Of a DNA stretch of 64,000 nucleotides, positions 16,691 through 50,860 are shown piece by piece. Below the pieces are notes generated by a model. That model worked only from the letters and a program-made list of their open reading frames with translations. It searched no databases and had not been told where the DNA came from. Source of the DNA: Actinorhabdospora filicis (GTDB lineage: Bacteria; Actinomycetota; Actinomycetes; Mycobacteriales; Micromonosporaceae); NCBI RefSeq assembly GCF_030269765.1, contig NZ_BSTX01000001.1, positions 1,975,571-2,039,570 on the forward strand. The letters are read 5' to 3'. The stretch's first letter is position 1. Every line of letters starts with the position of its first letter. The translations under genes were made by a program, and so were the position numbers.

Positions 16691-16819
16691 GGTTCTCCTT
16701 TCCTGGGGGAGCAGCGAGTATCCCGAGCCCCCGCCAGCGCCGAGAGCGCTTGCCACGCGACCCTCCGCGCGGGCTCCGCCCCTGCCCACCGAGAGCGCCG
16801 GGTAGGATCGGGGAGATTC

Positions 16820-16895
16820 GCTGGTGTGGCGCAATTGGCAGCGCAACCGCCTTGTAAGCGGTAGGTTGCGGGTTCGAGTCCCGCCACCAGCTCCA
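16820..16895 (+). tRNA. tRNA-Thr (anticodon UGU)
   Basis: Cloverleaf read directly: acceptor GCTGGTG/CACCAGC, D-stem GCGC, anticodon stem ACCGC/GCGGT with loop CTTGTAA, T-arm GCGGG-TTCGAGT-CCCGC, encoded CCA. Confidence 0.8.
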
Positions 16896-16963
16896 GGTTC
16901 ACTCGTGCCCGAGTGCCTTTTGAGCAGTGCCCTTTTGTGCCCGCCCACCCCCGGGAACCGAAT

Positions 16964-19690
16964 ATGAGATCAACGCTGCGCGCGTGCGTTTCGGCGCTCG
17001 CGCTGGCCGCCGTGTCCCTCGTCGTGGTGCCGGGGTCCGCCCTGGCCGAGCCGGTTCCGGCGACGGACGTGGAGATGGCCTTCCCCGCCGGCCCTCCCGT
17101 GGATCTCGTCGTGGACGACGCCCGCGGGCTCGTCTACCACGCCTCGCCGACCGGCCTGACCGTCCTCGACTTCGACGGCACCGTCCAGCGCACCATCGCC
17201 GGGAGCCTGCCGTGGCGGACGCTGACCATGAGCGCCGACGGTTCGCGGCTCTACGCGACGGCACGCTGGAAGAACGCGATCGACGTGATCGACACCGCGA
17301 CCTGGGAGCTGAGCACCGTCCGGCTCCCGGCCACCCACTGCCTGATCTCGGCCGAGTTCACCGGCGGCCTGCTCTGGTACTCGTACTTCACCTGCGGGAA
17401 CGGCAAGATCGGCTCGCTGGCGTCCTACGATCCCGCGACCGGGACGGTCACCGAATCGGGCCTGAGCGCACCGGCGGGCAACCTCACGGCGCTTCCCGGC
17501 CGTCCGGACCGCCTGGTGCAGCGAGACTGGAACGGCGAGAAGCAGCGACTCCGGATCTTCGACGTCTCCGGCGCTCCCCGCGAGGTGGCCGTCAGCTCGT
17601 TCCTCACCTCGCACTGCGGGGACGTGGCGCTCATCGACGGCGGCGAACGGCTGGCGCTGTCCTGCAATCGCGCCTACGACCTGGAGATCTTCGATACGGC
17701 GACCCTGACGTCGACCGCCACGAAGCTCACGGAGAACCACGGGGGGACACTCGCGGTGTCCCCCGACGGCGCGTACTTCGCCGTGGGAGGCCCGCTGAAC
17801 GGGCCGGGCACGCACGTCGAGATCGTGAAGGCCGCCGACATGTCGACGGTGCGGATCTACGACTACCCCGGGGCCGCCGGCTTCTACGAGCACCCGATGG
17901 CCTGGCTCGGCGACGGGCGGCTGATGACCTTCCACGGCAGCCGTCTTCGCCTGCATCTGGAACCGGCCAAGTACATCACCGACACCTACGCGGCGGCGCT
18001 GTGGAAGGCCGTCCCCTACGGCGAGGCCGCGGTCCTGAGGGGCTACGTGCGCGGCGGCCCGGACCGGGTCCGTGAACTCACCGTCACGCGTGAAGACCGG
18101 CTCGGGCGGCACCCACTCGGGCGACTGGCCACCGGCCTCCAGGGCGGATTCGAGTTCACCGACGCGGGAGCGCCGGTGTCCGGCAAGGCCACTTACACCT
18201 TCGACTTCGCCGGGGACGCCTACGGGACCGTCGCGAGCGTGTCCGTGACCGTCGCGACTCAGGCGGTTCCCTTCGACTTCAACGGCGACGGCATCGCCGA
18301 GGCCGTCGTCGGCACGCCCGGTGAGGATGACGGATCCATTACCGACACCGGCCAGGTGCACGTGTTCCCAACGACGACGGCCGGAGTGACCGCGGGTGGC
18401 AGCCTCGCGTTCGACCAGAGCTGGGCCGGTCTCGTCGGCGACAACGCCCCTGGGGACCGGCTGGGCGCGGCCACCGCGTCCGGTGACTTCAACGGCGACG
18501 GTTTCGCCGACCTCGCCATCGGTGCGCCCGGCAAGGACGCGTTCGGCGCGGCCGACTCCGGCGCCGTGATCGTCGCGTACGGTTCGGCGTCCGGCCTGAC
18601 CTCGGCCGGTTCGGTGATGCTGACACCCGACAACGCGCCCGGAGCGCTCACCGGGCACGCCTTGGCGGCCGCCGACTTCAACACCGACGGGATCGACGAA
18701 CTCGCGGTCGGCGCGCCCGGAACGGGATCGGGCACCGTGTACCTGTACACCGGGAATCCCTCCGGTCTCTCGAACCCGCATGCGCTGTACCAGAGCAGCG
18801 ACGAGATCCCCGGACGCGGCGGGGGCGGCAACGCCTTCGGCTGGTCCCTGGCCGCCGGGCGAGTGCAGGGTCCGCACGTCAACCCGGCTCTGGCGATCGG
18901 CGCGCCACAGGACAGGGAGGACGCCGAACGGTCCACCGGCTCGGTGACCGTCCTCTACGGCCTTCCCTTCCTGCCCGGTCAGACGGTGTCGAAGGCGCAG
19001 CGCTTCACGAAGGAGACGCCCGGCGTGCCGGGTACCGCAGGTCCGCACGATCCGAAGACCGGGGACGGCGCCGACGAATTCGGGCTCAAGGTCGCCATCG
19101 GCGACTTCAACGGCGACGGCGATGACGACCTCGCCGTCTCCGCCCCCGGCACCAACGTGACCAGCGGCGGCAAGAAGCGGGCCGACGCCGGATCGGTGAC
19201 GGTCCTCTACTCCGACGGGTACGAGATCGGCACCACCGGCGCCAAGGAGGTCACCCAGGACACCGACGGCATCGTCGGTCTCCCCTACGACAACGACTTC
19301 TTCGGCGACAACCTCGCCACCGGGGACACCAACGGCGACGGCGCCGACGAACTGGCGATCTTCTCCTACGGCGACGAGTACGTGACGATCACCCCGGGCG
19401 CCACCAGTGGCCTGGCCTTCACCTCGACGACCGCCTGGACTCAGGACTCACCCGGCATCCCCGGCTCGCACGAATCCGGCGACAAGTGGGGCGCGAGCCT
19501 GCGGTTCCTCACCGGCGCCAAGCCCGCGCTCCTGGTGGGCGCGCCGGGCGAGGACGACCGGCAGGGCGCGTTCACCGTCGTCTACATCGGGCCGAAGGGA
19601 CTGACGGGGGACGGCGCGCGGTACTTCGGGGAGGGCACACCGGGCGTACCGGGCGAGCCGGAGAACGGCGACGGGTTCGGGACCTTCTAG
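16964..19690 (+). CDS. secreted YVTN-propeller / Ig-like / FG-GAP-repeat protein (paralog L1)
   Basis: Signal peptide MRSTLRACVSALALAAVSLVVVPGSALA. N-terminal YVTN-type repeats (LYATARWKNAIDVIDTAT). C-terminal FDFNGDGxADxAxGAPGxD FG-GAP repeats. Conserved C-terminus ...GDGFGTF. Confidence 0.85.
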   Translation: MRSTLRACVSALALAAVSLVVVPGSALAEPVPATDVEMAFPAGPPVDLVVDDARGLVYHASPTGLTVLDFDGTVQRTIAGSLPWRTLTMSADGSRLYATARWKNAIDVIDTATWELSTVRLPATHCLISAEFTGGLLWYSYFTCGNGKIGSLASYDPATGTVTESGLSAPAGNLTALPGRPDRLVQRDWNGEKQRLRIFDVSGAPREVAVSSFLTSHCGDVALIDGGERLALSCNRAYDLEIFDTATLTSTATKLTENHGGTLAVSPDGAYFAVGGPLNGPGTHVEIVKAADMSTVRIYDYPGAAGFYEHPMAWLGDGRLMTFHGSRLRLHLEPAKYITDTYAAALWKAVPYGEAAVLRGYVRGGPDRVRELTVTREDRLGRHPLGRLATGLQGGFEFTDAGAPVSGKATYTFDFAGDAYGTVASVSVTVATQAVPFDFNGDGIAEAVVGTPGEDDGSITDTGQVHVFPTTTAGVTAGGSLAFDQSWAGLVGDNAPGDRLGAATASGDFNGDGFADLAIGAPGKDAFGAADSGAVIVAYGSASGLTSAGSVMLTPDNAPGALTGHALAAADFNTDGIDELAVGAPGTGSGTVYLYTGNPSGLSNPHALYQSSDEIPGRGGGGNAFGWSLAAGRVQGPHVNPALAIGAPQDREDAERSTGSVTVLYGLPFLPGQTVSKAQRFTKETPGVPGTAGPHDPKTGDGADEFGLKVAIGDFNGDGDDDLAVSAPGTNVTSGGKKRADAGSVTVLYSDGYEIGTTGAKEVTQDTDGIVGLPYDNDFFGDNLATGDTNGDGADELAIFSYGDEYVTITPGATSGLAFTSTTAWTQDSPGIPGSHESGDKWGASLRFLTGAKPALLVGAPGEDDRQGAFTVVYIGPKGLTGDGARYFGEGTPGVPGEPENGDGFGTF

Positions 19691-19702
19691 GACGAGCCTC
19701 GG

Positions 19703-19733
19703 CGGCCGTGATCATCCGAGATGATCACGGCCG
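19703..19733 (+). terminator. hairpin after L1
   Basis: CGGCCGTGATCAT-ccgag-ATGATCACGGCCG, 13-bp stem directly after the TAG stop. No T-tract, as is common in actinomycetes. Confidence 0.55.
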
Positions 19734-19807
19734 CTTTCATGTCCGCCGTCCCTGCTAGATTCGTCCACCGCAGTGCCCCGTGCCCTCTTCACCCCTGTGG
19801 AACGCCC

Positions 19808-22516
19808 ATGAGAAAGCACGTGCCCTTGACCGTCCTCGCCGTCATCGCGGCGAGCCTCACGGTCCCGGCTGCGGCCTCGGCCGCCGACCGGTCGGACACC
19901 GTGACCCCGCTGCCTGCGGGCGACCATCGCGACATCGTCGTGGACGACGCCCGCGAGCGGATCTTCCTGGCCTCGGCTGATCCGGCGGCCGTGGTCATTG
20001 CCGGGTTCGACGGCGGGATCATCACGACCGTCACCGGGCTGACGTCGCCGGTGGACCTGGAACTCGCGCCGGGCGGGACGGCCGTCTACGCACTGGACGG
20101 CGGAACCCTCGCCCGGATCGACACCACGTCGTTCGCCGTCGACCACGTGACACTTCCGGCCTCACACTGCGCCGATTCGCTGGCCGTGACCGGCGGCAAG
20201 GTCTGGTACTCCTACCATCAGTGCGACGCGCCGGGCGAAGGCTCGATCGCCTCGTTCGAGCCCGGCACCGGGAAGGTCACCGAGAGCGGCCTCACGACTC
20301 GCCCCGGCCGCCTGCTCGCGCGAGCCGACCGCCCGGACCGGCTGGTGCGCTTGGACGAGGCCGGCGCCGACGTCTTCGACGTCTCCGGCGCCGCTGCGCA
20401 GAAGAAGGTGAGCAACGCCGAGCCGGGCTGCGGTGACGCGACCCTGCTCAGGCGAGGGGATCTCGTGCTCACCGCCTGCGGTGGGGACACCAGTCGCTTC
20501 CAGGTCTGGGCCACATCCGACCTGCTGTCGCGCGGCTCGACCTACCTCGGCGAGGAGACCGCCGTCGCGGCCTCCGCCGACGGCCGGTTCGCGGCCTTCG
20601 GCTTCGCCCGCTACCCGGGCGAGTTCGCCGTCCACGTGCGCGACCTGGGCGCCGACCTGTCGGGCGCGTACGTCCGCCGCTTCGAACTTCCCACCGACGC
20701 GGCCGTGACGCCCGGATCCCTCGCGTTCACCGGCGACGGCCGGCTCATCATCGTCCCGACGGCATCGGACGGGACGCGTTCCCTGCGCGTCTACGCCGAT
20801 CCCTTCACTCCGGACGCGGGCCTCACCGCCACCGGCCCCCGCAGGGTCCTTCCCGGCACGCCGATCACCATCACGGGAAAGGTCACCCCGGCACCCGGAC
20901 GCCCGGCCCTGCTGTCGCTGTCCCGGACCCGCAATGACCTCACCGAGTTCCTGCCCGGCGTGTCCACCGATGCCGACGGAAACTACTCGTTCACCGACGA
21001 CCCGCAGGGGTTCACCGGGCGTCTCCTCTACGAGGTCACCGCGTACAACGCCGACGGTTTCGGCGAGGTCAAGCGGTCGGTGCCCGTGGTCGCCCAGGTG
21101 CGTGCCTTCGACTTCAACGCCGACGGCTTCCCCGAGACCGTCACCGGCGCTCCCGGCGAGGACACCGGATCCAGCAAGGACACCGGGCAGATCACCGTCT
21201 TTCCCGGCGGCGCCAACGGCCCCGACCTGACCGCCGGGAAGATCTTCGACCAGGACACCCCCGGCGTGTCCGGCAGCAACGAGACCGGCGACCGCTTCGG
21301 TACCGCCCTCGCCTCCGGCGACTTCAACGGTGACGGCTACGCCGACCTCGCCGTCGGCTCGCCCACGGAGGACAACGACTCCTTCACCGACAGCGGCGCG
21401 ATCATCGTCCTCTACGGATCGTCCAGCGGCCTGAGCACCGAGTCGAACATGTTCGCCTCCGGCGCCCGCACCGGCTACCACCTCGGGCAGTCGCTGGTCG
21501 CACTCGACCTGGACGGCGACGGCATGGACGAGCTGGCCGCGGGCGCGCCCGGGTGGGACTCCGGCGCCGTCCTCGTCTATGAGCGACGCCACGCGTCCCG
21601 GCTACTCGACACCTGGGCCTTCCTCGACCAGGAGTACATGACGGGTGTCAACCACACCGGCGAGGGCTTCGGCTGGTCGCTGGCCACCGGCGACATCGAC
21701 GGCGACGGTCTCGCCGACCTGGCCATCGGCGCCCCTCAGGACACCGATGACAAGGGCTGGTCGACCGGCTCGGTGAGCGTTCTGTACGGCTCAAGGTCCG
21801 GCGTCAACTCACTCGGGGCGCAGCGGATCACCAAGGAGACCCCCGGTGTCCCCGGCTCCGCCGGTCCCCGCAACGCCGCCACCGGCGACGGCGCCGACGA
21901 GTTCGGGCTCAAGCTCGCCATGGGCGACTTCAACGGTGACGGCAGAGACGACCTCGCCGCCGCCGCGCCCGGCACGCACGTGAAGAACGCCGCCGGGACC
22001 GACCAGCCCGACGCCGGGTCGGTCACCGTCCTCTACTCGGACGGCGCCAAGCTCGGCACCACCGGAGCCACCGAGATCACCCAGCTGTCCGGGCCGGTCT
22101 TCGGCGCCCCCGCCGACAACGACTTCTTCGGCGACACCCTCGCCGCCGGAGACGCCAACGGCGACGGCACCGACGAACTGGCGATGTTCTCCTACGGCGA
22201 CGACCGCCTGTGGGTCACGCCGGGCTCCACCGCCGGGCTCCTGCTCGCCACGACCACCGCGTGGAACCAGGACACGCCGGGCATCCCCGGCTCGGCGGAG
22301 TCCGGCGACAAGTGGGGCTCAAGCCTGCGGTTCCTCGCCGGCACCAAGCCCGCCCTGCTCGTGGGCGCGCCGGGTGAGGACGCCCAGCAGGGCGCCTTCA
22401 CCGTCGTGTTCGGCGGTCCTTCGGGACTGACCGGGACGGGGGCGATCTACGTCGGCGAGGACACCCCCGGCGTCCCGGGCACCGCCGAGAACGGCGACAG
22501 ATTCGGGACCTTCTAG
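19808..22516 (+). CDS. secreted YVTN/Ig/FG-GAP protein (paralog L2)
   Basis: Signal peptide MRKHVPLTVLAVIAASLTVPAAASA. Same architecture as L1. Confidence 0.85.
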   Translation: MRKHVPLTVLAVIAASLTVPAAASAADRSDTVTPLPAGDHRDIVVDDARERIFLASADPAAVVIAGFDGGIITTVTGLTSPVDLELAPGGTAVYALDGGTLARIDTTSFAVDHVTLPASHCADSLAVTGGKVWYSYHQCDAPGEGSIASFEPGTGKVTESGLTTRPGRLLARADRPDRLVRLDEAGADVFDVSGAAAQKKVSNAEPGCGDATLLRRGDLVLTACGGDTSRFQVWATSDLLSRGSTYLGEETAVAASADGRFAAFGFARYPGEFAVHVRDLGADLSGAYVRRFELPTDAAVTPGSLAFTGDGRLIIVPTASDGTRSLRVYADPFTPDAGLTATGPRRVLPGTPITITGKVTPAPGRPALLSLSRTRNDLTEFLPGVSTDADGNYSFTDDPQGFTGRLLYEVTAYNADGFGEVKRSVPVVAQVRAFDFNADGFPETVTGAPGEDTGSSKDTGQITVFPGGANGPDLTAGKIFDQDTPGVSGSNETGDRFGTALASGDFNGDGYADLAVGSPTEDNDSFTDSGAIIVLYGSSSGLSTESNMFASGARTGYHLGQSLVALDLDGDGMDELAAGAPGWDSGAVLVYERRHASRLLDTWAFLDQEYMTGVNHTGEGFGWSLATGDIDGDGLADLAIGAPQDTDDKGWSTGSVSVLYGSRSGVNSLGAQRITKETPGVPGSAGPRNAATGDGADEFGLKLAMGDFNGDGRDDLAAAAPGTHVKNAAGTDQPDAGSVTVLYSDGAKLGTTGATEITQLSGPVFGAPADNDFFGDTLAAGDANGDGTDELAMFSYGDDRLWVTPGSTAGLLLATTTAWNQDTPGIPGSAESGDKWGSSLRFLAGTKPALLVGAPGEDAQQGAFTVVFGGPSGLTGTGAIYVGEDTPGVPGTAENGDRFGTF

Positions 22517-22529
22517 GCCCATTACACCC

Positions 22530-22566
22530 AACCGGCCGCGATCACCCAGAGTGATCGCGGCCGGTT
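22530..22566 (+). terminator. hairpin after L2
   Basis: AACCGGCCGCGATCAC-ccaga-GTGATCGCGGCCGGTT. Paralogous to the L1 hairpin. Confidence 0.55.
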
Positions 22567-22636
22567 CGTTGTATCGATGACCTGCTATTTTGATGATCCA
22601 CTCCGTGCCCTGCCCCACTTCACCCCTGGAACACCC

Positions 22637-25411
22637 ATGCGCAAACGCGTGCCCGCGATCCTCGCCGCCCTGACCGTGGTGGCGGCGGGTCTCATCACCA
22701 TCGTCCCGGCGAGCGCCGAGGCCGCGGAACCCGCGAACGCGGTACCGGCCGATAGAGCGGTCCGTCTGCCGGGCGGCACGTTCACCGCGCTCGGCGATGA
22801 CACCGCACACGGACGGATCTATATCGCCCTGAACAATCCGGACGCGGTGGCGGTGGCCCGGACCGATGGCACGCTGGCCACGACCATCACCGGCGTGACG
22901 CGGCCGTCCGAACTCGTCGTGGCCCCGGACGGCGCGACCGTCTACGCCATCGAGAGCGGCTCGTCCTCCTTCGCGCGGGTGGACACCGCGACGAACGCCG
23001 TCGACCGGGTGCTCCTTCCGGAAACCCACTGCCCTGAATCGGCGACGTTCACGGGCGGGCGACTCTGGTACTCCTACCGTGTATGCGGCGCCGAGACACG
23101 ATCGCTGGCCTCCTACGACCCGGCTTCCGGCGCGATCACCGAAAGCGGTGTGAACGTTGCTGCAGGCGACGTGCGCGCGCTGCCGCAGCGTCCGGAACGG
23201 TTGCTGGTCCTGAGCGCGGCGGCCGATGGTGGCATGCGGGTTTATGACGCCACGCGGGACACGCCGATTGAGGTGGCTCGCACGGACCGGGGCGGCTGCT
23301 TCGCCGCCACCTTCATCAACGGTGGCGACGCGGTCATCGCGACCTGCGCCGGCTCCAACGCGCATCCGGTGTACCTCACGGCCGACCTTACGACCGACCA
23401 GTCCATCTCCGACGACACCGCGACTTCGGCGGCGGTGTCGGCCAGCCCCGACGGGAAGAACATCGCGGTCGCTTCGAGGACCTGGAACGCCGCGAGCCAG
23501 ACGATCCGTATTCGCTCGATCGGAAACGGGCTTCCCGGCGAATCCGTCCGGAGCTACACGGCTCGCGACCTGGCGCCGGAGAGCGTCGTCCTCACCGACG
23601 GCTCGATGCTCCTCATCGTCGACGCTTCGGCCACCAATCACCCGCTCCTGCGCATCCATAAGGCCCCGTATCACCGGGTGACCTTCATCGACGCCAGATC
23701 CGCCATCGCGCCCATCGACTACCACGGCACCGCGAGGCTGTCGGGGACTCTGATGTCCTGGGACGGGAACTGGCGCAGCAGCCCGCTGGCCGCGGGCACG
23801 ATCCGCGTATGGCGCTCCGACCGCACCGGCGCCCGTGCCGTGGGAACGGCCTCCGTGGGCCCGGACGGCACCTTCGCCTTCGACGATCCGGCCGGGGCGG
23901 TGACCGGGCAGATCGTCTACACCTTCTCCTTCGACGGCGATGAACGCCACCTCAGGTCCAGCGGGAGCCAGTCCGTGATCGTCCGCCCGGTCCCCTTCGA
24001 CTTCGACGGTGACGGCCGCGCCGACGGGGTGAGCGGCGCGCCCTGGGAGGACACCGGCCGGTCCACGGACACCGGACAACTGCACGTCTTCCCCGCCGGT
24101 GCCAAGGGCCTGGATCTCGGCGCGGGCAGGATCTTCGATCAGGACACCCCGGATGTCTCCGGGAGCAACGAGACCGGCGACCGCTTCGGCTCGTCCTTCG
24201 CTTCGGGAGACTTCGACGCCGATGGCTTCGCCGACCTCGCCGTCGGTGTGCCCGGTGAGGACAATGACGCCTATCGCGACGGCGGTGCCGTAATCCTCCT
24301 CTACGGCTCCGTGTACGGGCTGACCTCGCGTTCCCGGATGCTCGCCCGGGATGTCGCCGGGGCGGAGTTCGGGCGTTCTCTCGCCGCGGGCGACTTCGAT
24401 GGTGATGGGGCGGCCGATCTCGCCGTCGGCGCACCGGGAGAAGGCTCCGGACGAACCTTCGTGTACGCCGGAAGCCGTGGCGGCGGGATGGACACGACGG
24501 CACGCGTGGCCCTGGGCCAGGGCCTCGGTCAACGGCCCGTTCCAGGGGCGAGCTACACCGGCGATCACTTCGGCTGGTCCCTCGCCACCGGCGACATCAA
24601 CGGGGACGGACGATCCGATCTCGTCGTGGGTACACCGCACGATCGCGATGACACCGATGCCCCCACCGGATCGGTGACCGTGCTCTACGGACGCGCCGAA
24701 ACGGCGTTCCTCACCTCCGACGGCGCACAGTGGATCTCGAAGGAGACGGCCGGGGTCCCGGGTGCCGCCGGACCGGCGAATCCGAAGACGGGCGACGGTT
24801 CCGACGAGTTCGGGCTCAAGGTCGCGATGGGCGACTTCAACGGTGACGGTAAGGACGACCTGGCCGTCGCCGCGCCCGGCGCACATGTGAAGAACGCGGC
24901 CGGGAAAGACCAGCCGGACGCTGGAACCGTGACCGTCCTCTACTCGGACGGCGCCAAGCTCGGCACCACCGGAGCCACCGAGATCACCCAGCTGTCCGGG
25001 CCGGTCTTCGGCGCCCCCGCCGACAACGACTTCTTCGGCGACACCCTCGCCGCCGGAGACGCCAACGGCGACGGCACCGACGAACTGGCGATGTTCTCCT
25101 ACGGCGACGACCGCCTCTGGATCGCCCCGGGCTCACCCAAGGGCCTCGACATCGGCGCGACGGCCATGTGGAGCCAGGACACACCGGGCGTCCCGGGTTC
25201 GGCGGAATCCGGCGATAAGTGGGGATCCAGCCTGCGTTTCCTCTCCGGGGACACGCCCCTTCTGCTGGTCGGCGCACCCGGCGAGGACGACCGGCAGGGC
25301 GCGTTCACCGTCATCCGGGGCCTTTCGGGCACGGGCGCGGTGTTCGTCGGCGAGGACTCGCCGGGGGTTCCGGGCACCGCCGAGAAGGGCGATGGGTTCG
25401 GGACGTTCTGA
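22637..25411 (+). CDS. secreted YVTN/Ig/FG-GAP protein (paralog L3)
   Basis: Signal peptide MRKRVPAILAALTVVAAGLITIVPASAEA. Upstream region similar to the L2 promoter region. Confidence 0.85.
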   Translation: MRKRVPAILAALTVVAAGLITIVPASAEAAEPANAVPADRAVRLPGGTFTALGDDTAHGRIYIALNNPDAVAVARTDGTLATTITGVTRPSELVVAPDGATVYAIESGSSSFARVDTATNAVDRVLLPETHCPESATFTGGRLWYSYRVCGAETRSLASYDPASGAITESGVNVAAGDVRALPQRPERLLVLSAAADGGMRVYDATRDTPIEVARTDRGGCFAATFINGGDAVIATCAGSNAHPVYLTADLTTDQSISDDTATSAAVSASPDGKNIAVASRTWNAASQTIRIRSIGNGLPGESVRSYTARDLAPESVVLTDGSMLLIVDASATNHPLLRIHKAPYHRVTFIDARSAIAPIDYHGTARLSGTLMSWDGNWRSSPLAAGTIRVWRSDRTGARAVGTASVGPDGTFAFDDPAGAVTGQIVYTFSFDGDERHLRSSGSQSVIVRPVPFDFDGDGRADGVSGAPWEDTGRSTDTGQLHVFPAGAKGLDLGAGRIFDQDTPDVSGSNETGDRFGSSFASGDFDADGFADLAVGVPGEDNDAYRDGGAVILLYGSVYGLTSRSRMLARDVAGAEFGRSLAAGDFDGDGAADLAVGAPGEGSGRTFVYAGSRGGGMDTTARVALGQGLGQRPVPGASYTGDHFGWSLATGDINGDGRSDLVVGTPHDRDDTDAPTGSVTVLYGRAETAFLTSDGAQWISKETAGVPGAAGPANPKTGDGSDEFGLKVAMGDFNGDGKDDLAVAAPGAHVKNAAGKDQPDAGTVTVLYSDGAKLGTTGATEITQLSGPVFGAPADNDFFGDTLAAGDANGDGTDELAMFSYGDDRLWIAPGSPKGLDIGATAMWSQDTPGVPGSAESGDKWGSSLRFLSGDTPLLLVGAPGEDDRQGAFTVIRGLSGTGAVFVGEDSPGVPGTAEKGDGFGTF

Positions 25412-25422
25412 ACGTCACGCCG

Positions 25423-25458
25423 AAACGGCCGCGACCACGCTTGTGGTCGCGGCCGTTT
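25423..25458 (+). terminator. hairpin after L3
   Basis: AAACGGCCGCGACCAC-gctt-GTGGTCGCGGCCGTTT, 16-bp stem. Confidence 0.6.
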
Positions 25459-25526
25459 CGCGTACTCTCCAGATCGCCCACCGTCCGCGTTCCACCCGAC
25501 GCGTCGTTCAATTGGAGGAGTCACCC

Positions 25527-30776: not shown

Positions 30777-30863
30777 GTCGGCTCCTCGCCAGGGCAATGA
30801 CGAATAGGCGGGCGGGCACAAAGGAGTGGGACGGACGCCTCCCGGCGTCCGTCCCCAGTGGAC

Positions 30864-33830: not shown

Positions 33831-34922
<1,092 letters not shown>

Positions 34923-35057
34923 GGTGGCTCCATTCACCGGCAGGAACGTGCCGGACGATCCGAGTAAAGGGAGACGGCCCGTGAGGGCCGGTCCAGGTAG
35001 CGGCCATTTAAGCCGGTGATCACCGCCGCGGCAAGTGTCCGGAGGTGGTTCGTCCGG

Positions 35058-40470: not shown

Positions 40471-40480
40471 CTCTCCGGCG

Positions 40481-40513
40481 AAAGGGGCCGCTCCCGGTGG
40501 GAGCGGCCCCTTT
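40481..40513. terminator. bidirectional hairpin between ubiA-like and R1
   Basis: AAAGGGGCCGCTCCC-ggt-GGGAGCGGCCCCTTT, 15-bp stem. Confidence 0.6.
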
Positions 40514-40517
40514 CGCT

Positions 40518-43190
40518 TTAGAACGTGCCGAAGAGATCGCCGTTCTCGGCGGCTCCGGGCACGCCCGGGGAGTCCTCGCCGAAGTAGGTCGCGCCGGTGC
40601 CGGTGAGCCCGCCGGATCCGATGTAGACGACGGTGAACGCGCCCTGCCGGTCGTCCTCGCCCGGCGCGCCCACCAGGAGGGCGGGCTTGGCGCCGGACAG
40701 GAAGCGCAGGCTCGCGCCCCACTTGTCCCCGGCCTCCTGCGAGCCCGGGATCCCGGCCGTCTCCTGGCTCCACCACACGCTCGCGCCGGAACTGAGGCCC
40801 GTGGCGGTACCGGGGATCACCGAGAGGTACTCGTCGCCGTAGGAGAACACCGCCAGGTCGGCGCGACCGTCCCCATTGGAGTCACCGGCGGCGAGGTTGT
40901 CGCCGAAGAAGTCGTTGTCGCCGGGCAGCCCGACGATGCCGGGGGTGTCCTGGGAGATCTCGGCGGCCCCGGCGGTGCCCAGCTTGGACCCGTCGGAGTA
41001 GAGGATCGTGACCGTCCCGGCGTCGGTGACACCACTGACCAGGCTGCCGGGCGCGGAGGCGGCCAGGTCGTCGCGTCCATCGCCGTTGAAGTCGGCCAGC
41101 GCCACTTCCAGGCCGAACTCGTCGGCACCGTCCCCTGTGGACGGCTCGTACTTCCCGGCCGTACCGGGGACGCCCGGTGTCTCCTTGGAGATCCGCTGCC
41201 TGGGATCGACCGGCAGCCCGTTGCGGCCACCCTTGTAGACCAGCACCGCACCGGTCGACCAGCCCTTGTCGCCGGTGTCGCCGGGCGCGCCCACCGCCAG
41301 GTCGTCGAAGTGATCACCGTCGATGTCACCGGTGGCCAGGGACCAGCCGAAGCGCTCCCCGGCGACCGGGTCGCCCACCGGCCGCAGCCACGTCTTCCAC
41401 ACCGGACCAGTCGGCGTGCCCGAGTAGACCTCGACCCCGCCGCCGGACGTGCCGGGCGCACCCAGGGCGATGTCGTCGCGCCCGTCGCCGTCGAAGTCAC
41501 CGGCCGCCAGGGACCAGCCCAGCGTCAGCCGGGCCGCGGCCCGCGACCAGATCGAGGTGGAGCCCATGGTGGCCAGTCCGTTCGCCGAGCCGTAGAGGAT
41601 CTCGGCCATCCCCGACTCCGCCGCGCCGTCGCTCTCACCGGGCGCGGCCACCGCCAGGTCGGCGTAACCGTCGCCGTTGAAGTCGCCGGAGGCCAGCGCC
41701 CGCCCGAGCATGTCACCGTCCTCATTGGACCCGTCGAGGCCCGGCGTGTTCTGGTCCAGCGCCCGCGAACCCGTCACGGTCACCCCCGAGGCCGTCCCCG
41801 CGAACACGTGGAACTGGCCGGTGTCGGTGGCGTCCCCGGTGTCCTCATCCGGCGTGCCCACCGCCACGTCGGCGTAGCCGTCGGCATTGAAGTCCCACGG
41901 CACCGGCCGCACCGTCACCGTCGCCGTCCACGTCGCCGGGCGGTGCCCGGCGTCCCCGGCGTAGTCGAGGGTGAAGCGGATCGGGCCGGTCAGGCGTCCC
42001 GGGTCGTGCCGGAACGCGAAGGTCCCGTCGGCGGCGGTGGTCACCGTGCTCCGGTAGGTGCCCGAGCCGTCGACGCGGGTCAGCGCCAGCGGGACCGCCC
42101 CGCCCGGGCCGCGCTTCAGCGTCCCGCTCACGTCGAAGGCGCTCTTGTACTCCACCGCCGCCGGTGCCGTGACCTCGATGGACGGCAGGTACGTCCCGGC
42201 GTCGCCCAGCACGAACAGCTTCACCTCGGCCGTCGCCGGATCGCCGCCCAGCGCCAGGATCCGGCCGTCGCCGGTGAAGGCGATCCGGGCCGGCTCCACC
42301 GCGTCCGGCATCGCGTACCGCCGGTTCTCGGCACCCGGCAGCCCGCCGGACACGTCGACCACCGACAGCGCCGCCCGCTCACCGCTCCCGTCGTAGACCG
42401 CCAGGTGCCGCCCGTCCGGGCTCACCGCCACGTCCCACGGCTCGACCACAGTGGACAGCGGCGCGGGATCGCTCAAACCCGGCGCGCGGTACACCGTCAG
42501 CGAACCCGCCGCGCCCGAGCGGACCGCGACCTGGCCGGTGAGCGGCAGGTAGGCCGCGCCGTCGCAGCAGTCCTCACCGGTGAGCTCACCCTTCTGCACC
42601 GGCGTTCCGCCGGTCACGTCGTACAGCGCGACCTTTTCGTAGGGCGCGAGCACGAGCAGCCGCCCCGGCCCCGCCGGGGACAGGCTCACGCCGGTGGGCA
42701 GCGAGAGTCCACTGTCGACGAACGCGCCGGTGGCGGGATCCAGCGAGCCCAGCCCGCCCGCGTAGCTCTGGCAGTCGTGGAAGCCGAACCAGAACCGGCC
42801 CCCGCTGAACGCGCCCGCGTCCGGGCACACCGACTCCGGCAACCCCACCTGCCGGATCGCCAGGGAGGCGGCGTCGATGACCTGCACCCGCGCCTGATCG
42901 CTCTCGATGACGTACACAGTGGACCCGTCGCCGCCGAGGGCGAGCGAGCGCGGCCAGGCCAGCTCGGCGAACGAGCGCTGCACAACGCCGTCCAGGCCCA
43001 CGACGGCGACGGAGTTCCCCGCCGCCACGAAGACCCGCTGCCGGGCGGCGTCCAGCACGAAGTCCGAGCTGTCGGCGGGCAGCGCCACGGCCGTGTAGCC
43101 GGGATCCTCGGCCACGGCGGCGGGCGGGGCGATCAAGAGAGCGGTGGCCAAGGCCAGCGCGGAGACTGTGGCATGGGTGCGCGGTGACAT
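40518..43190 (-). CDS. secreted YVTN/Ig/FG-GAP protein (paralog R1)
   Basis: Start trimmed to MSPRTHATVSALALATALLIAPPAAVA (GGGAG RBS). Same architecture and C-terminus ...GDLFGTF. Confidence 0.8.
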   Translation of the reverse strand: MSPRTHATVSALALATALLIAPPAAVAEDPGYTAVALPADSSDFVLDAARQRVFVAAGNSVAVVGLDGVVQRSFAELAWPRSLALGGDGSTVYVIESDQARVQVIDAASLAIRQVGLPESVCPDAGAFSGGRFWFGFHDCQSYAGGLGSLDPATGAFVDSGLSLPTGVSLSPAGPGRLLVLAPYEKVALYDVTGGTPVQKGELTGEDCCDGAAYLPLTGQVAVRSGAAGSLTVYRAPGLSDPAPLSTVVEPWDVAVSPDGRHLAVYDGSGERAALSVVDVSGGLPGAENRRYAMPDAVEPARIAFTGDGRILALGGDPATAEVKLFVLGDAGTYLPSIEVTAPAAVEYKSAFDVSGTLKRGPGGAVPLALTRVDGSGTYRSTVTTAADGTFAFRHDPGRLTGPIRFTLDYAGDAGHRPATWTATVTVRPVPWDFNADGYADVAVGTPDEDTGDATDTGQFHVFAGTASGVTVTGSRALDQNTPGLDGSNEDGDMLGRALASGDFNGDGYADLAVAAPGESDGAAESGMAEILYGSANGLATMGSTSIWSRAAARLTLGWSLAAGDFDGDGRDDIALGAPGTSGGGVEVYSGTPTGPVWKTWLRPVGDPVAGERFGWSLATGDIDGDHFDDLAVGAPGDTGDKGWSTGAVLVYKGGRNGLPVDPRQRISKETPGVPGTAGKYEPSTGDGADEFGLEVALADFNGDGRDDLAASAPGSLVSGVTDAGTVTILYSDGSKLGTAGAAEISQDTPGIVGLPGDNDFFGDNLAAGDSNGDGRADLAVFSYGDEYLSVIPGTATGLSSGASVWWSQETAGIPGSQEAGDKWGASLRFLSGAKPALLVGAPGEDDRQGAFTVVYIGSGGLTGTGATYFGEDSPGVPGAAENGDLFGTF

Positions 43191-43328
43191 GGCTTCTCCC
43201 TCAGGCCTGCCGGTGACCGTAGGTGCACTACGGGCACAGCGAAGCTCGCCCATGTGAATGGACGTGCGCCACGCCGTGAAAAAGGGCCGCCCCTGAGGAG
43301 ACGGCCCTTTCACTATCGGTATTCGAGG

Positions 43329-46037
43329 TCAGAAGGTGCCGAAACGGTCACCGTTCTCCGGCTCGCCCGGAACACCCGGCGTCCCCTCGCCGAAGTACTG
43401 CGCACCCTCGCCGGTGAGCCCGTTCCGTCCGATGTAGACGACGGTGAACGCGCCCTGCCGGTCGTCCTCGCCCGGCGCGCCGACCAGAAGAGCAGGTTTG
43501 GCGCCACCGAGGAAGCGCAGGCTCGCGCCCCACTTGTCCCCGGACTCCTGCGAACCCGGGACGCCCGGCGAATCCTGGCTCCACCACACGCTCTTGCCGA
43601 AGGCGAGGCCGTCGACCGAGCCCGGGATGACGGAGAGGTAGTCGTCGCCGTAGGAGAAGAGCGCCAGATCGGCGATCCCGTCGCCATTGGAGTCACCGGC
43701 GGCGAGGTTGTCGCCGAAGAAGTCGTTCTCGCCGGGAAGGCCGACGATGCCGGGGGTGTCCTGGCTCATCTCGAAAGCCCAGTCGGTACCGATGCGCGAG
43801 CCGTCGGAGTACAGGACGGTCACCGTCCCGGCATCGGTCACACCGTTCACCGCGCTGCCGGGGGCGGACGCGGCGAGATCGGCCTTGCCGTCACCGTTGA
43901 AGTCGGCGAGGACGACCTTCAGGCCGAACTCGTCGGCGCCGTCACCGGTGCGGGGTTCGTACTTGCCAGGTGAGCCGGGGACGCCGGGGGTGTTCTTGGT
44001 GATGCGCTGGACGTCGTCGCCGAGCCCGCCAGCATCGCCTTGGAACAAGTAGACCGCACCCGTCGACCAGCCCTTGTCCTGTGCATCGCCGGGCACGCCC
44101 ACCGCGAGGTCGTCGCGGCCATCCTGATCAACGTCTCCGGTTGCCAGCGACCAGCCGAATCTGTCACCGAGGGCCTGCTCTCCGCCGGTGTCGTACTCCG
44201 ACAGCTGCATGCGCCAGGCCAGGCCCGTGGGGGTGCCGTGGTACACGCGGACGCGTCCGCCGAAGTCGCCCGGCAAGCCGACGGCGAGGTCGGAGACGCC
44301 GTCGCCGTCGAAGTCCCCGGCGGCCAGCGACGAGCCCAGCCAGTCGTGGGTGTACTTCCCTTCCGGCCACAAGGAACCGGAGCCGCTCGTGGTGAGCCCG
44401 GCGGCCGATCCGTACAAGATCTCCACCATGCCGGAGTCGGCGGTGGTGTCGTCTTCGCCCGGCGCGCCGACGGCGAGGTCGGCGTAGCCATCGTCATTGA
44501 AATCCCCGGACGCGGTGGCCTGCCCGAGCCGGTCGTCGGCCTCGTTGGTGCCGTCCACGCCGGGCGTGTTCTGGTCCATCGCACGAGAACCGGACGCGGT
44601 GACGCCCGAGGCGGTGCCGTAGAGGACGTGGAACTGCCCGGTGTCGGTGGTGCGCCCGTCGTCTTCGCCGGGGGTGCCCACGACGACGTCGGTGTACCCG
44701 TCGCCGTTGAAGTCCCAGGCGGTGGGCCGGACGGTGACCTTGCCGGTCCACCTGGCCGCCGCGTGCTCGGCGTCGCCCGCGTAGGTGATCCTGTACTCGG
44801 CCGAGCCGGTCACGTCGGCCTTCTCGGCGAAGGTGAAGGAACCGTCCGGCGCGGTGGTGACCGTGCTCTGCCGCGTCCCGGCACGGGTGACACGGGTGAC
44901 CGTCACGGTCGCGCTCACGTCGATCCCCTTCACCACACCGGTCAGCGTCACGCTCTCCCGGTGCCCGACCCGGGCGGGTGCGGTGGCGGTGATGGACGTG
45001 GCGGCCTTCGTGGCGTCGCGCATGACGAAGATCGTCGGGGTCCGGGTGTTCCATTCGGTGCCCGCGGCCAGGACGGTGCCGTCGGCGCCGGCGATGACCC
45101 GCCGCGCGTCCATCACCGGGCCGGGCAGGACGTATTCGCGCAGCAGCTCACCGGGCGTGCCGGAGGTCAGGTCGCGCACGCCGACGGCGGCGGAGATGCC
45201 CTCCGTGCGCAGGACCGCCAGGAACCGGTGGTCCGGGCTGACGTCCACGCCCAACGCGCGGTCGTGCTCCGCCATCCGGCGCGGCGCGGCGGTCAGGTCG
45301 TTCGCCGAGTACAGCGCGAGGGCCGTTCCGTCCCCGGGCACCACGGCCACCTCGTCGGTCTTCGGCAGCGCGATCGAGGTTCCGCGCCAGGAACCGCCCG
45401 CGATGGTGCCGAGCACGACGGGAGCCGTTCCCGAGACGTCGATCAGCTCCTGGCCATAAGGCAGGGAGGCGTGGACGAACACCAGCCGGTCCGGCCGGTC
45501 GGGCAGCGCGCGCAGCTCGGTGGCCAGCCCGAGTGAGAGCCCGCCGTCGGTGACCGTACCGGTGGCGGGATCGTAGGACGCGAATCCCGTCCCGGCCCGC
45601 CCGCACTTCTGGTAGTCGAACCAGAGGCGCCCACCGGTGAACACGCTCCGGTTCGGGCAGATCGAGGGGTCGAGAGCCACGCTGCTCTTGGCGTAGGTGA
45701 CGGTGTCGATCACGTTGAGGCGGGGCTTGCCCTCATCGAGGGTGTAGAGGGTGTTCCCGTCGGCGCTCAGACTGAGGCTGCTCGGGAACCCGAGGCCGCC
45801 GGTGATCTCCTTGACCTTCGTACCGTCGAGATCGCGGATGAACACCCAGCCCGCCTCCGCGGTGAGGATGTGCTGCCGTGCCGCGTCATAGGCGAAGTCG
45901 GCGTAGCCGAGAGGGAACGGGATGGAGGTGATCCCGGCATCGGGTACCTCCGCCACCGCCTGCGGTGCGCCGATGAGCACACCGGCGAGAACGGCGAGCG
46001 CCGCCAGGAGGGCGCGCACGCGCGTGCGTCTGTTCAT
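43329..46037 (-). CDS. secreted YVTN/Ig/FG-GAP protein (paralog R2)
   Basis: Signal peptide MNRRTRVRALLAALAVLAGVLIGAPQAVA. C-terminal half very similar to R1. Confidence 0.85.
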   Translation of the reverse strand: MNRRTRVRALLAALAVLAGVLIGAPQAVAEVPDAGITSIPFPLGYADFAYDAARQHILTAEAGWVFIRDLDGTKVKEITGGLGFPSSLSLSADGNTLYTLDEGKPRLNVIDTVTYAKSSVALDPSICPNRSVFTGGRLWFDYQKCGRAGTGFASYDPATGTVTDGGLSLGLATELRALPDRPDRLVFVHASLPYGQELIDVSGTAPVVLGTIAGGSWRGTSIALPKTDEVAVVPGDGTALALYSANDLTAAPRRMAEHDRALGVDVSPDHRFLAVLRTEGISAAVGVRDLTSGTPGELLREYVLPGPVMDARRVIAGADGTVLAAGTEWNTRTPTIFVMRDATKAATSITATAPARVGHRESVTLTGVVKGIDVSATVTVTRVTRAGTRQSTVTTAPDGSFTFAEKADVTGSAEYRITYAGDAEHAAARWTGKVTVRPTAWDFNGDGYTDVVVGTPGEDDGRTTDTGQFHVLYGTASGVTASGSRAMDQNTPGVDGTNEADDRLGQATASGDFNDDGYADLAVGAPGEDDTTADSGMVEILYGSAAGLTTSGSGSLWPEGKYTHDWLGSSLAAGDFDGDGVSDLAVGLPGDFGGRVRVYHGTPTGLAWRMQLSEYDTGGEQALGDRFGWSLATGDVDQDGRDDLAVGVPGDAQDKGWSTGAVYLFQGDAGGLGDDVQRITKNTPGVPGSPGKYEPRTGDGADEFGLKVVLADFNGDGKADLAASAPGSAVNGVTDAGTVTVLYSDGSRIGTDWAFEMSQDTPGIVGLPGENDFFGDNLAAGDSNGDGIADLALFSYGDDYLSVIPGSVDGLAFGKSVWWSQDSPGVPGSQESGDKWGASLRFLGGAKPALLVGAPGEDDRQGAFTVVYIGRNGLTGEGAQYFGEGTPGVPGEPENGDRFGTF

Positions 46038-46140: not shown

Positions 46141-46152
46141 GTCCATCACCTG

Positions 46153-50828: not shown

Positions 50829-50860
50829 GGCACGAGTCTGCCCAATGGCACCGGCGGTGA

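What the first reader, a model, noticed from the sequence alone, without database searches (positions are those of the whole stretch)
22025..25116. 185-bp perfectly identical tract shared by L2 and L3: recent gene conversion
L2 22025-22209 and L3 24932-25116 are identical. The tract reads accgtcctctactcggacggcgccaagctcggcacc...ctcctacggcgacgaccgcct and encodes LYSDGAKLGTTGATEITQLSGPVFGAPADNDFFGDTLAAGDANGDGTDELAMFSYGDDRL.

The flanking sequence is only about 75-80% identical. Shorter identical runs also link R1 and R2, e.g. gatgtagacgacggtgaacgcgccctgccggtcgtcctcgcccggcgcgcc near 40620 and 43430. This implies ongoing concerted evolution within the array, as seen in contingency or antigen-variation loci and in tandem surface-protein families.
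Basis: seen in the sequence. Interest (0 to 1): 0.6.

Follow-up and report, generated by a model that had tools for sequence, protein, structure and literature searches.

The report
Gene-conversion tract between two tandem paralogs
Two neighbouring copies of a secreted FG-GAP (integrin-alpha-like repeat) protein gene in the actinomycete Actinorhabdospora filicis share a perfect 185-base stretch although they have otherwise diverged to about 64% identity, which is a clear but ordinary case of one gene copy recently overwriting part of the other.

Summary
Window 22025-22209 (gene L2) and 24932-25116 (gene L3) are identical over exactly 185 nt. The match is in frame, colinear and bounded by a mismatch on each side.

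It is not chance, and amino-acid conservation with codon bias does not explain it:
- The next-longest exact L2/L3 run is 26 nt.
- 73 consecutive family-polymorphic sites agree, against a permutation maximum of 24-26.
- None of about 48 synonymous sites differ in the tract, while flank pS is 0.40-0.43.
- The other four paralogs differ from L2/L3 in the same columns.

The best explanation is one recent, short, non-reciprocal homologous-recombination event between direct-repeat paralogs 2.9 kb apart. The donor was probably L2, because tract GC3 matches L2 and not L3.

The wider claim of ongoing concerted evolution, or an antigenic-variation-like array, is not supported:
- The six paralogs are 57-67% identical, with near-saturated synonymous sites.
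- All six are full-length genes with their own start, signal peptide and terminator-like hairpin.
- The tract lies in the most conserved part of the gene, not a variable part.

The 51-nt identical run is also real and occurs in three genes (L1, R1, R2). The statistics for conversion there are mixed. Gene conversion between bacterial paralogs is a well-known process, so interest is low.

The parts
22025..22209 (+). Identical 185-nt tract, copy in L2 (probable donor). It covers codons 769-830 of ORF 19721-22516.
   Evidence: Exact, maximal identity. The alignment shows L2 = L3 and both differ from the other four paralogs. Tract GC3 is 0.95, matching L2's local GC3 of 0.94-0.96.
24932..25116 (+). 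Identical 185-nt tract, copy in L3 (probable recipient).
   Evidence: Exact identity. L3's local GC3 is 0.79-0.87 against 0.95 in the tract; binomial p is about 0.01, and the likelihood ratio is about 24 for L2-type composition.
16964..19690 (+). L1, a secreted FG-GAP double-propeller paralog. The ORF runs from 16913; the likely start is MRSTLRAC at 16964.
   Evidence: ORF list, translation, Pfam FG-GAP 2.7e-36. It equals database protein P0016, 908 aa.
19808..22516 (+). L2, a secreted FG-GAP double-propeller paralog. It is the same as NCBI Afil01_19000 of Actinorhabdospora filicis, 902 aa.
   Evidence: 100% match to P0001. Pfam FG-GAP 8.6e-49. The structure model has pLDDT 77 and shows an N-terminal propeller, an Ig-like domain and an FG-GAP propeller.
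22637..25411 (+). L3, a secreted FG-GAP double-propeller paralog, 924 aa.
   Evidence: Equals P0017. Pfam FG-GAP 1.4e-48. Its GC3 of 0.847 is the lowest of the six.
40518..43190 (-). R1, a paralog in the right-hand array, which is inverted relative to the L array.
   Evidence: ORF, Pfam FG-GAP 6.8e-50, alignment A1.
43329..46037 (-). R2, a paralog in the right-hand array.
   Evidence: Equals P0015, 902 aa. Pfam FG-GAP 5.4e-47.
46153..48891 (-). R3, a paralog in the right-hand array.
   Evidence: ORF, Pfam FG-GAP 1.4e-48.
19529..19590 (+). Short identical block in L1. It is 62 nt identical to R1 and 53 nt identical to R2, reverse-complemented. It encodes GAPGEDDRQGAFTVVYI.
   Evidence: Codon-aware permutation gives L1-R1 p < 3e-4 and L1-R2 p = 7e-4. 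The GENECONV-type global p is 0.27-0.47.
40617..40679 (-). The same short identical block in R1.
43428..43481 (-). The same short identical block in R2.
19701..19735 (+). GC-rich terminator-like hairpin directly after the L1 stop codon. Analogous hairpins follow L2 (about 22531-22566), L3 (about 25421-25460), R1, R2 and R3.
   Evidence: strand folding gives -33 to -46 kcal/mol with z-scores of -2.8 to -7.0 for all six downstream regions. The intergenic alignment shows the hairpins are not alike in sequence.

Best explanation
A single, recent, short ectopic gene conversion, that is a non-reciprocal homologous-recombination event, between two old tandem paralogs.

Setting. L2 and L3 are direct repeats 2,907 bp apart. 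They belong to a six-member, lineage-specific family of secreted proteins in Actinorhabdospora filicis. Each protein has a signal peptide, an N-terminal beta-propeller, an Ig-like domain and a C-terminal FG-GAP propeller.

Inferred mechanism. A break or gap in one copy, most likely L3, was repaired using the other copy as template, either on the same chromosome or on the sister chromosome. [quoted passage not shown] At most 185 nt were copied.

Location in the protein. The tract spans the last strand of one FG-GAP blade and the first strands of the next, including its DxNxDGxxD calcium-loop motif. This is the most nucleotide-conserved part of the family. For example, AACGACTTCTTCGGCGACA is invariant in all six genes. 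Such a stretch is where diverged paralogs still offer enough contiguous homology to pair.

What is shown and what is inferred.
- Shown: the identity, its sharp edges, its statistical excess, the absence of synonymous differences, and the divergence of the other paralogs in the same columns.
- Inferred: the recombination pathway, the L2-to-L3 direction, and that the event is a neutral or nearly neutral by-product of repair rather than a programmed process.
For: - The identity is exact, 185 nt long and maximal.
- The next-longest exact L2/L3 run is 26 nt.
- 73 consecutive concordant polymorphic sites against a null maximum of 24-26; global p < 1e-4.
- 0 synonymous differences in about 48 synonymous sites within the 185 nt; the single difference counted lies in the boundary codon at 22210. 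Flank pS is 0.40 on the 5' side and 0.43 on the 3' side.
- P(all 61 degenerate codons identical, given identical amino acids) = 6e-16.
- In the same columns L1, R1, R2 and R3 differ from L2/L3 at both synonymous and non-synonymous sites, for example LSGPVFGAPA against DT(D/P)GI(V/I)GLP(Y/G). Family-wide purifying selection therefore cannot explain the identity.
- The tract is colinear and in frame, has no indel, and has no third copy in the window.
- No Rfam RNA family overlaps it.
- Zero differences give a 95% upper bound of 1.6% divergence over all sites, or about 6% at synonymous sites. The flanks have dS of about 0.6, so the event falls within roughly the last tenth of the paralogs' divergence time.
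- Direction: tract GC3 is 59/62 = 0.95. This fits L2's background and not L3's (p about 0.01; likelihood ratio about 24).
- Scale fits precedent: in another actinobacterium, M. tuberculosis, detected conversion tracts between paralogs have a median length of 101 bp (PMC13061034).
Against: - There is only one genome, so no read-level data were available to exclude an assembly or polishing artefact.
- No close orthologs exist (the best outside homologs are at most 44% identical). The tract-versus-flank phylogenetic incongruence test and a rigorous polarity test therefore cannot be done.
- Present-day flanking homology is thin. The 5' side has exact runs of 20 and 23 nt about 80-130 nt upstream, and the 3' side has runs of at most 9 nt for the first 240 nt or so. 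Classical RecA-dependent exchange between such diverged sequences should therefore be rare.
- A third donor elsewhere in the genome cannot be excluded. Only the 64-kb window was available, and the peptide search that might have shown such a donor returned nothing interpretable.
Confidence: 0.88

Rival explanations
1. Assembly or polishing artefact. Reads from one paralog were used to 'correct' the other, or a graph bubble was resolved wrongly, creating a false identical stretch.
For: Nothing positive was found. Read support could not be inspected, and the source is a single draft assembly (protein P0001 comes from a 2.7-Mb contig of A. filicis).
Against: The flanks are only 78-88% identical, and the four other paralogs are 72-80% identical to L2/L3 in these columns. 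Reads would therefore not cross-map to a diverged original. The tract is in frame and preserves every invariant family residue in both genes. Both ORFs stay intact. There is no contig break or run of N.
Confidence: 0.04
2. No conversion at all. The identity reflects strong purifying selection on the peptide together with the extreme GC3 codon bias of this genome.
For: The tract lies in the most conserved part of the family, where invariant residues are dense. GC3 is 0.85-0.95, which inflates synonymous identity: P(same codon given same amino acid) is 0.56-0.61.
Against: Conditional on identical amino acids, the probability of 61 identical codons is 6e-16. The codon-aware permutation gives a null maximum of 22 codons against 61 observed. 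The other paralogs are not conserved to this degree in the same columns (pS 0.19-0.31, pN 0.20 against L2/L3).
Confidence: 0.01
3. Both L2 and L3 were converted by a third donor, either another paralog elsewhere in the A. filicis chromosome or incoming foreign DNA. In that case L2 did not convert L3 directly.
For: The shared sequence (LSGPVFGAPA...) differs from all four other paralogs in the window. The rest of the genome was not available. The family has further members in related genera.
Against: It needs two events with identical end points at both edges, which is unlikely. No third copy exists in the window. The profile search of 1.84 billion representatives returned only four sequences identical to window genes (L1, L2, L3, R2), with the next hit at most 44% identical. 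However, paralogs more than 50% identical to these four would be hidden by the clustering.
Confidence: 0.05
4. The arrays form a programmed diversification system: segmental conversion among six cassettes varies a surface or secreted protein, as in pilE/pilS, vlsE or opa-type loci.
For: - There are six paralogs in two inverted arrays.
- There is one clear tract, plus a short L1/R1/R2 identical block that is significant in a codon-aware test.
- The N-terminal halves are very divergent, with pN about equal to pS.
- The six paralogs are monophyletic relative to the Phytomonospora homologs.
Against: - All six are complete genes, each with its own signal peptide, start codon and terminator-like hairpin. 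None is truncated or promoterless.
- The exchanged segment is the conserved one, and the variable N-terminal halves show no shared tracts.
- Synonymous sites between paralogs are near saturation, so exchange is rare.
- There are no simple-sequence repeats.
- The organism is an environmental actinomycete, and no known host immune pressure applies (background knowledge).
Confidence: 0.03

Closest known systems
Ectopic gene conversion between bacterial paralogs. Examples are tufA/tufB in Salmonella and the PE/PPE and ESX paralogs of Mycobacterium tuberculosis (the latter in PMC13061034; the former from general knowledge).
   Same: A short, non-reciprocal, homology-dependent copy of a segment from one paralog into another within one chromosome. 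The tract is about 100-200 bp (Mtb median 101 bp). It is detected as a run of identity with no synonymous differences inside diverged flanks.
   Different: The paralogs here are far more diverged (63.5% overall, 78-88% locally) than typical converting pairs. The Mtb study reports that conversion frequency falls as divergence rises. Only one clear event is visible, so the genes are not kept homogeneous as tufA/tufB are. No population data were available.
Concerted evolution of tandem gene arrays, such as rRNA operons and tandem surface-protein families.
   Same: Tandem direct repeats of homologous genes. There is evidence of at least one homogenising exchange. Paralogs cluster by genome in the family tree.
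   Different: The array is not homogenised. Nucleotide identity is 57-67%, and pS is 0.4-0.6 outside the tract. Lineage-specific duplication explains the tree equally well. No syntenic orthologs exist to separate the two explanations.
Cassette-based antigenic variation loci, such as Neisseria pilE/pilS and Borrelia vlsE (general knowledge).
   Same: Segmental, non-reciprocal transfer between related coding sequences that lie close together.
   Different: There is no architecture of one expression site plus silent cassettes, because all six genes are complete. The transferred segment is conserved rather than variable. No sign of high frequency was found.
FG-GAP (PF01839) beta-propeller proteins, meaning bacterial proteins with the integrin-alpha-like repeat.
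   Same: There are 4-6 significant FG-GAP repeats per protein, with Pfam E-values from 1e-36 to 1e-50. DxNxDGxxD loops are present. The predicted C-terminal domain is all-beta and propeller-like.
   Different: The full architecture is signal peptide, N-terminal propeller, Ig-like domain and FG-GAP propeller, about 900 aa in all. The best full-length hits whose sources were looked up come from Phytomonospora and Micromonosporaceae MAGs, and all outside homologs are at most 44% identical. No NCBIfam family covers it. Its function is unknown.

Membership tests
Interparalog (ectopic) gene-conversion tract | A run of identity between paralogs significantly longer than their divergence predicts | tested here: met
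   185 nt against a next-longest run of 26 nt. 73 concordant polymorphic sites against a null maximum of 24-26; global p < 1e-4.
Interparalog (ectopic) gene-conversion tract | Synonymous sites are homogenised inside the tract but not in the flanks, which excludes selection on the protein | tested here: met
   0 synonymous differences in about 48 sites within the exact 185 nt against pS 0.40 and 0.43 in the flanks. The codon-aware null maximum is 22 codons against 61 observed. P = 6e-16.
Interparalog (ectopic) gene-conversion tract | Colinear and in frame, with no indels or mobile-element ends. Other family members are not equally conserved there. | tested here: met
   Codon alignment of the six genes. 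Only two copies are present in the window.
Interparalog (ectopic) gene-conversion tract | Phylogenetic incongruence of the tract against the flanks, relative to orthologs in related strains or species (this also gives polarity) | not testable with these tools
   No homolog above 44% identity exists in the searched collections. The Phytomonospora loci share no synteny with the window. The only polarity hint is GC3.
Interparalog (ectopic) gene-conversion tract | Read-level support that both copies really carry the sequence | not testable with these tools
   No reads were available.
Concerted evolution of the whole array | Low synonymous divergence among paralogs across most of their length | tested here: not met
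   pS is 0.4-0.6 in all segments and pairs outside the tract. Nucleotide identity is 57-67%.
Concerted evolution of the whole array | Multiple independent significant exchange tracts among members | tested here: inconclusive
   The GENECONV-type test supports only L2-L3 decisively, with R2-R3 at global p = 0.004. The R2-R3 block is mostly amino-acid conservation. The codon-aware test supports the L1/R1/R2 short block, 17-20 codons, at p <= 7e-4.
Concerted evolution of the whole array | Paralogs within a genome are closer to each other than to orthologs in other taxa | tested here: inconclusive
   The six are monophyletic in an NJ tree. Without syntenic orthologs, lineage-specific duplication explains this equally well.
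Cassette-type antigenic or contingency variation locus | One expressed copy plus silent, truncated or promoterless donor cassettes | tested here: not met
   There are six complete ORFs of about 900 aa. Each has an N-terminal signal-peptide-like sequence, its own 115-140-nt upstream spacer and a downstream hairpin.
Cassette-type antigenic or contingency variation locus | Exchange targets the variable, exposed segments | tested here: not met
   The tract lies in the region with the highest density of invariant residues. The divergent N-terminal halves show no shared tracts.
Cassette-type antigenic or contingency variation locus | Simple-sequence repeats or other hypermutable switches in or upstream of the genes | tested here: not met
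   Tandem Repeats Finder reports only weak 2-3-copy repeats with periods of 9-21 nt, and none at the gene starts.
FG-GAP repeat protein (Pfam PF01839) | Pfam FG-GAP score above the gathering threshold, with multiple repeats | tested here: met
   123-167 bits against a cut-off of 22.1, with 4-6 stretches in each of the six proteins.
FG-GAP repeat protein (Pfam PF01839) | Beta-propeller fold of the repeat region | tested here: met
   The AlphaFold2 model has pLDDT 77 and is all-beta from residue 435 to 902. Foldseek hits are beta-propeller proteins only. The blade count was not verified residue by residue.

The most novel reading that the evidence does not exclude
The two inverted three-gene arrays could act as a reservoir for recurrent segmental exchange, both within an array and between the inverted arrays. 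The 51-62-nt block shared by L1 on one strand and R1/R2 on the other hints at this. Such exchange would shuffle blades of a secreted FG-GAP propeller and so diversify ligand specificity in a free-living or plant-associated actinomycete. That would be a low-rate, cassette-like diversification system outside pathogens. It might be helped by the absence of MutS/MutL-type anti-recombination in Actinobacteria.
Probability: 0.05. Interest if true: 0.55.

Novelty: new member of a known kind. Interest (0 to 1): 0.2.

Why it matters
The finding is a clean, single-genome textbook example that ectopic gene conversion still happens between bacterial paralogs that have diverged to about 64% identity overall and about 80% locally. 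The event was seeded in the most conserved repeat blade.

It has practical consequences for this family. The tract will distort trees, dN/dS estimates and read mapping. It also marks L2/L3 as a place where short-read variant calls would be unreliable.

It does not reveal a new mechanism or system. The gene family itself is uncharacterised. It encodes secreted double-propeller FG-GAP proteins, and its closest full-length relatives are in Phytomonospora and other Micromonosporaceae. The conversion tract says nothing about what these proteins do.

Tried and rejected
1. Ortholog-based polarity and timing.
- The look-up of encoding contigs found no record for L2 with either start codon.
- The first genome-contig scan with L2 found nothing.
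- The second scan, with the six-paralog alignment, returned 79 loci. Only three were full-length relatives (Phytomonospora; 40-42% identity). All three are single copies without tandem partners and share no synteny with the window. Neither polarity nor an ortholog-based test of concerted evolution was therefore possible.

2. Third-donor search. The search for homologous proteins with the 102-aa tract region returned no hit at all, not even the identical L2 protein known to be in the database. The full-length L2 search likewise missed the other five paralogs. This is presumably because the word index is saturated by FG-GAP repeats. I treat both results as uninformative, not as evidence of absence.

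3. R2-R3 91%-identical block (R2 about 44455-44720, R3 about 47294-47559). I considered it as a second, older tract. I rejected it as clear evidence because pN is 0.05 and pS is 0.31, only slightly below the neighbouring 0.36-0.42.

4. The 5' 'shoulder' (21878-22022, 88% identical). I considered it as part of a longer or older tract. I rejected this because pS there is 0.40, the same as elsewhere, so the high identity comes from low pN.

5. Embedded RNA element. No Rfam family overlaps the tract.

6. Function from structure. Foldseek against the PDB gave only generic WD40 or other beta-propeller matches, and NCBIfam gave no family.

7. The sigma-70 promoter and T-tract terminator scan found nothing useful in this high-GC DNA. 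The hairpins were found by folding instead.
Full report
**Observation**

Window positions 22025-22209 and 24932-25116 are identical over exactly 185 nt, and the match cannot be extended in either direction. The bounding mismatches are at 22024/24931 and 22210/25117. A 42-nt probe from the middle of the tract, searched with up to 3 mismatches, occurs only at these two places in the window.

A 51-nt exact string lies at 40620 and 43431. It occurs a third time, reverse-complemented, in L1 at 19538-19588. The maximal pairwise runs are 62 nt (L1-R1), 54 nt (R1-R2) and 53 nt (L1-R2).

**What the genes are**

The window has 71.5% G+C. L2 is 100% identical to a protein that NCBI names 'hypothetical protein Afil01_19000 [Actinorhabdospora filicis]'.

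Six paralogous ORFs of about 900 aa form two inverted arrays:
- L1 (16964-19690), L2 (19808-22516) and L3 (22637-25411) lie on the + strand.
- R1 (40518-43190), R2 (43329-46037) and R3 (46153-48891) lie on the - strand.

Each begins with a signal-peptide-like sequence (judged by eye). Each has 4-6 significant Pfam FG-GAP repeats in its C-terminal half.

An AlphaFold2 model of L2, built with the six paralogs as the alignment, has mean pLDDT 77. It is all-beta, and I read its strand pattern as three domains: an N-terminal propeller (about residues 30-330), an Ig-like domain (about 340-430) and the FG-GAP propeller (about 435-902). Foldseek against the PDB gives only generic propeller matches. 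NCBIfam has no family for these proteins.

Every gene is followed directly by its own strong GC-rich hairpin (-33 to -46 kcal/mol; z-scores -2.8 to -7.0). The spacers between genes are 115-140 nt and are not alike in sequence. I therefore read these as six separate, complete genes.

Between the arrays lie unrelated genes:
- a DUF3686/AAA ATPase of 1653 aa;
- an MsiK-like ABC ATPase with its msiK RNA leader;
- MarR, MFS, UbiD and UbiA.

**Family distribution**

A profile search of 1.84 billion representative proteins found about 25 full-length relatives. The ones I looked up come from Phytomonospora species and Micromonosporaceae MAGs. All are at most 44% identical to any of the six window genes.

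In a neighbour-joining tree the six A. filicis genes form one clade.

The three full-length loci recovered from genomes are all from Phytomonospora. They are single copies without tandem partners, and their flanks share no genes with this window. The tandem expansion is thus specific to this lineage. No ortholog is close enough to polarise or date events.

**Is the tract more than chance or selection?**

Whole-gene nucleotide identity between L2 and L3 is 63.5%. The other pairs are 57-67% identical. The next-longest exact L2/L3 run anywhere is 26 nt.

I ran a GENECONV-style test that permutes the 1,768 ungapped polymorphic columns of the six-gene codon alignment. L2-L3 has 73 consecutive concordant polymorphic sites. 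The largest value for any pair in 10,000 permutations was 24. Restricting the null to the conserved C-terminal part gave a maximum of 26.

Synonymous sites settle the question:
- The tract has no synonymous difference in about 48 synonymous sites.
- The 145 nt upstream have pS 0.40 and pN 0.09.
- The 300 nt downstream have pS 0.43 and pN 0.16.

The upstream 88% nucleotide identity is therefore due to amino-acid conservation. It is not part of the tract, and the tract has sharp edges.

Even given identical amino acids, all 61 degenerate codons would be identical with probability 0.563^61 = 6e-16. A codon-aware permutation that keeps the protein alignment fixed gives at most 22 identical codons in a row, against 61 observed.

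In the same columns the other four paralogs differ from L2/L3 at many synonymous and non-synonymous sites, for example LSGPVFGAPA against DT(D/P)GI(V/I)GLP(Y/G) (pS 0.19-0.31 and pN 0.20). Family-wide constraint therefore cannot explain the identity. No Rfam RNA family overlaps the tract.

**Timing and direction**

Zero differences in 185 sites bound the divergence at about 1.6% over all sites, or about 6% at synonymous sites (95% bounds). Flank dS is about 0.6. The event therefore falls within roughly the last tenth of the time since the flanks shared an ancestor.

L3 has the lowest GC3 of the six genes: 0.847 overall, and 0.79-0.87 around the tract. L2 has 0.94-0.96 locally. Tract GC3 is 59/62 = 0.95. 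That is improbable on L3's background (p about 0.01) and gives a likelihood ratio of about 24 for L2-type composition. This is a moderate hint that L2 was the donor. It is not proof.

**Mechanism (inferred)**

The anatomy fits ordinary ectopic gene conversion between direct repeats 2,907 bp apart. A break or gap in one copy would be repaired from the other by homologous recombination, copying at most 185 nt.

The tract covers the end of one FG-GAP blade and the start of the next, including its DxNxDGxxD loop. This is the region with the densest invariant residues in the family. It contains nucleotide strings that are invariant in all six genes, such as AACGACTTCTTCGGCGACA. It is the place where paralogs this diverged still offer contiguous homology for pairing.

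Outside the tract, present-day L2/L3 homology is thin. There are runs of 20 and 23 nt upstream, and runs of at most 9 nt for the first 240 nt or so downstream. Such events should therefore be rare.

The size fits precedent. A long-read study of 151 M. tuberculosis genomes reports a median tract of 101 bp, with conversion frequency falling as paralog divergence rises (PMC13061034).

Almost all Actinobacteria lack MutS/MutL and rely on NucS/EndoMS for mismatch repair (abstract of PMC5290159, listed). That NucS also limits homeologous recombination is general knowledge that I did not check in the paper. I did not test whether this bears on the event here.

**The wider interpretation**

The claim of 'ongoing concerted evolution within the array' is not borne out.
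- Outside the one tract, every pair in every segment has pS 0.4-0.6, which is near saturation for this codon bias.
- The R2-R3 block of about 91% identity (alignment columns 1545-1812) reaches global p = 0.004 in the polymorphic-site test. It has pN 0.05 and pS 0.31 against 0.36-0.42 beside it, so it is mostly amino-acid conservation.
- The short block shared by L1, R1 and R2 is not globally significant in the polymorphic-site test (p 0.27-0.73). It is significant in the codon-aware test (20, 18 and 17 identical codons; p <= 7e-4). It may record small exchanges, including between the inverted arrays, but the evidence is mixed.

The comparison with contingency or antigenic-variation loci fails on the defining features I could test:
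- There is no expressed copy with silent cassettes.
- The exchanged segment is conserved rather than variable.
- There are no simple-sequence switches.

**Rivals**

- An assembly or polishing artefact cannot be excluded without reads. It is unlikely, because sequences 78-88% identical do not cross-map, and both ORFs keep every invariant family residue.
- A third donor elsewhere in the genome cannot be excluded from a 64-kb window. It would need two events with identical end points.
- Selection plus codon bias is excluded.

**Verdict**

This is a real, statistically overwhelming, recent gene-conversion tract between two old tandem paralogs, and it is an instance of a well-known process. It matters for anyone building trees, computing dN/dS or calling variants in this family. 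It does not point to a new mechanism.

- Interest: 0.2.
- Novelty: new member of a known kind.

Noticed in passing
window 16820-16895 (+): A tRNA-Thr(TGT) gene lies about 70 nt upstream of the likely L1 start (ARAGORN; Rfam). The long ORF 15761-16948 on the minus strand (weak DUF6528 match) overlaps it, so that ORF's true start must lie further in. A tRNA at the edge of the left array could mark an old integration site. I did not test this.
   Followed up: no
window 19701-19735, ~22531-22566, ~25421-25460 (+); ~43275-43313, ~46105-46142, ~40475-40516 (-): Each of the six paralogs is followed directly by a different, strong GC-rich hairpin with a 14-18 bp stem (-33 to -46 kcal/mol; z down to -7). 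The hairpin after R1 sits between the convergent R1 and UbiA genes.
   Followed up: partly
window 22637-25411 (L3): L3 has clearly lower third-position G+C (0.847; 0.79 in its middle part) than its five paralogs (0.90-0.95), although it is an intact ORF. This may reflect relaxed codon selection or lower expression. I used it only as a polarity hint.
   Followed up: partly
window 19808-21200 and the matching parts of all six genes: In the N-terminal propeller and Ig-like halves, non-synonymous and synonymous differences are about equal (pN 0.39-0.50 against pS 0.44-0.52). In the FG-GAP half pN is 0.09-0.28. The N-terminal domain is diverging very fast. Synonymous saturation prevents a clean dN/dS reading.
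   Followed up: partly
window 19180-19690 (L1 3' end) vs 46153-46663 (R3 3' end): The last ~510 nt of L1 are 83% complementary to the last ~510 nt of R3. From alignment column ~2475 onward L1 is closest to R1, R2 or R3 rather than to L2/L3, although the full genes are only ~60% identical. This is a mosaic relationship across the two inverted arrays.
   Followed up: partly
window 34922-34979 (-): An Rfam msiK RNA leader (53.8 bits; gathering threshold 33) lies directly upstream of the MalK/MsiK-like ABC ATPase gene at 33831-34937.
   Followed up: no
window 25860-30821 (-) and 30864-32942 (-): A 1653-aa protein carries DUF3686 ('ATPase involved in DNA repair', 732 bits), DUF7902 and a C-terminal AAA domain. 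It is followed by a 692-aa ORF with no Pfam match. These lie directly between the two arrays.
   Followed up: no
L001 and L002 (Phytomonospora endophytica contig NZ_JACHGT010000008.1, 198471-221233 and 273485-296175): P. endophytica carries two full-length family members about 75 kb apart on one contig in convergent orientation, echoing the convergent L/R arrangement here. Both are single copies, and their flanks share no genes with this window.
   Followed up: partly
window 48964-51200 (-): A NarL/LuxR-type response regulator and a HisKA_3 histidine kinase lie directly beyond R3. The long ORF 48964-51627 is a read-through artefact of overlapping frames. The regulator domains are at its C-terminal end.
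   Followed up: no
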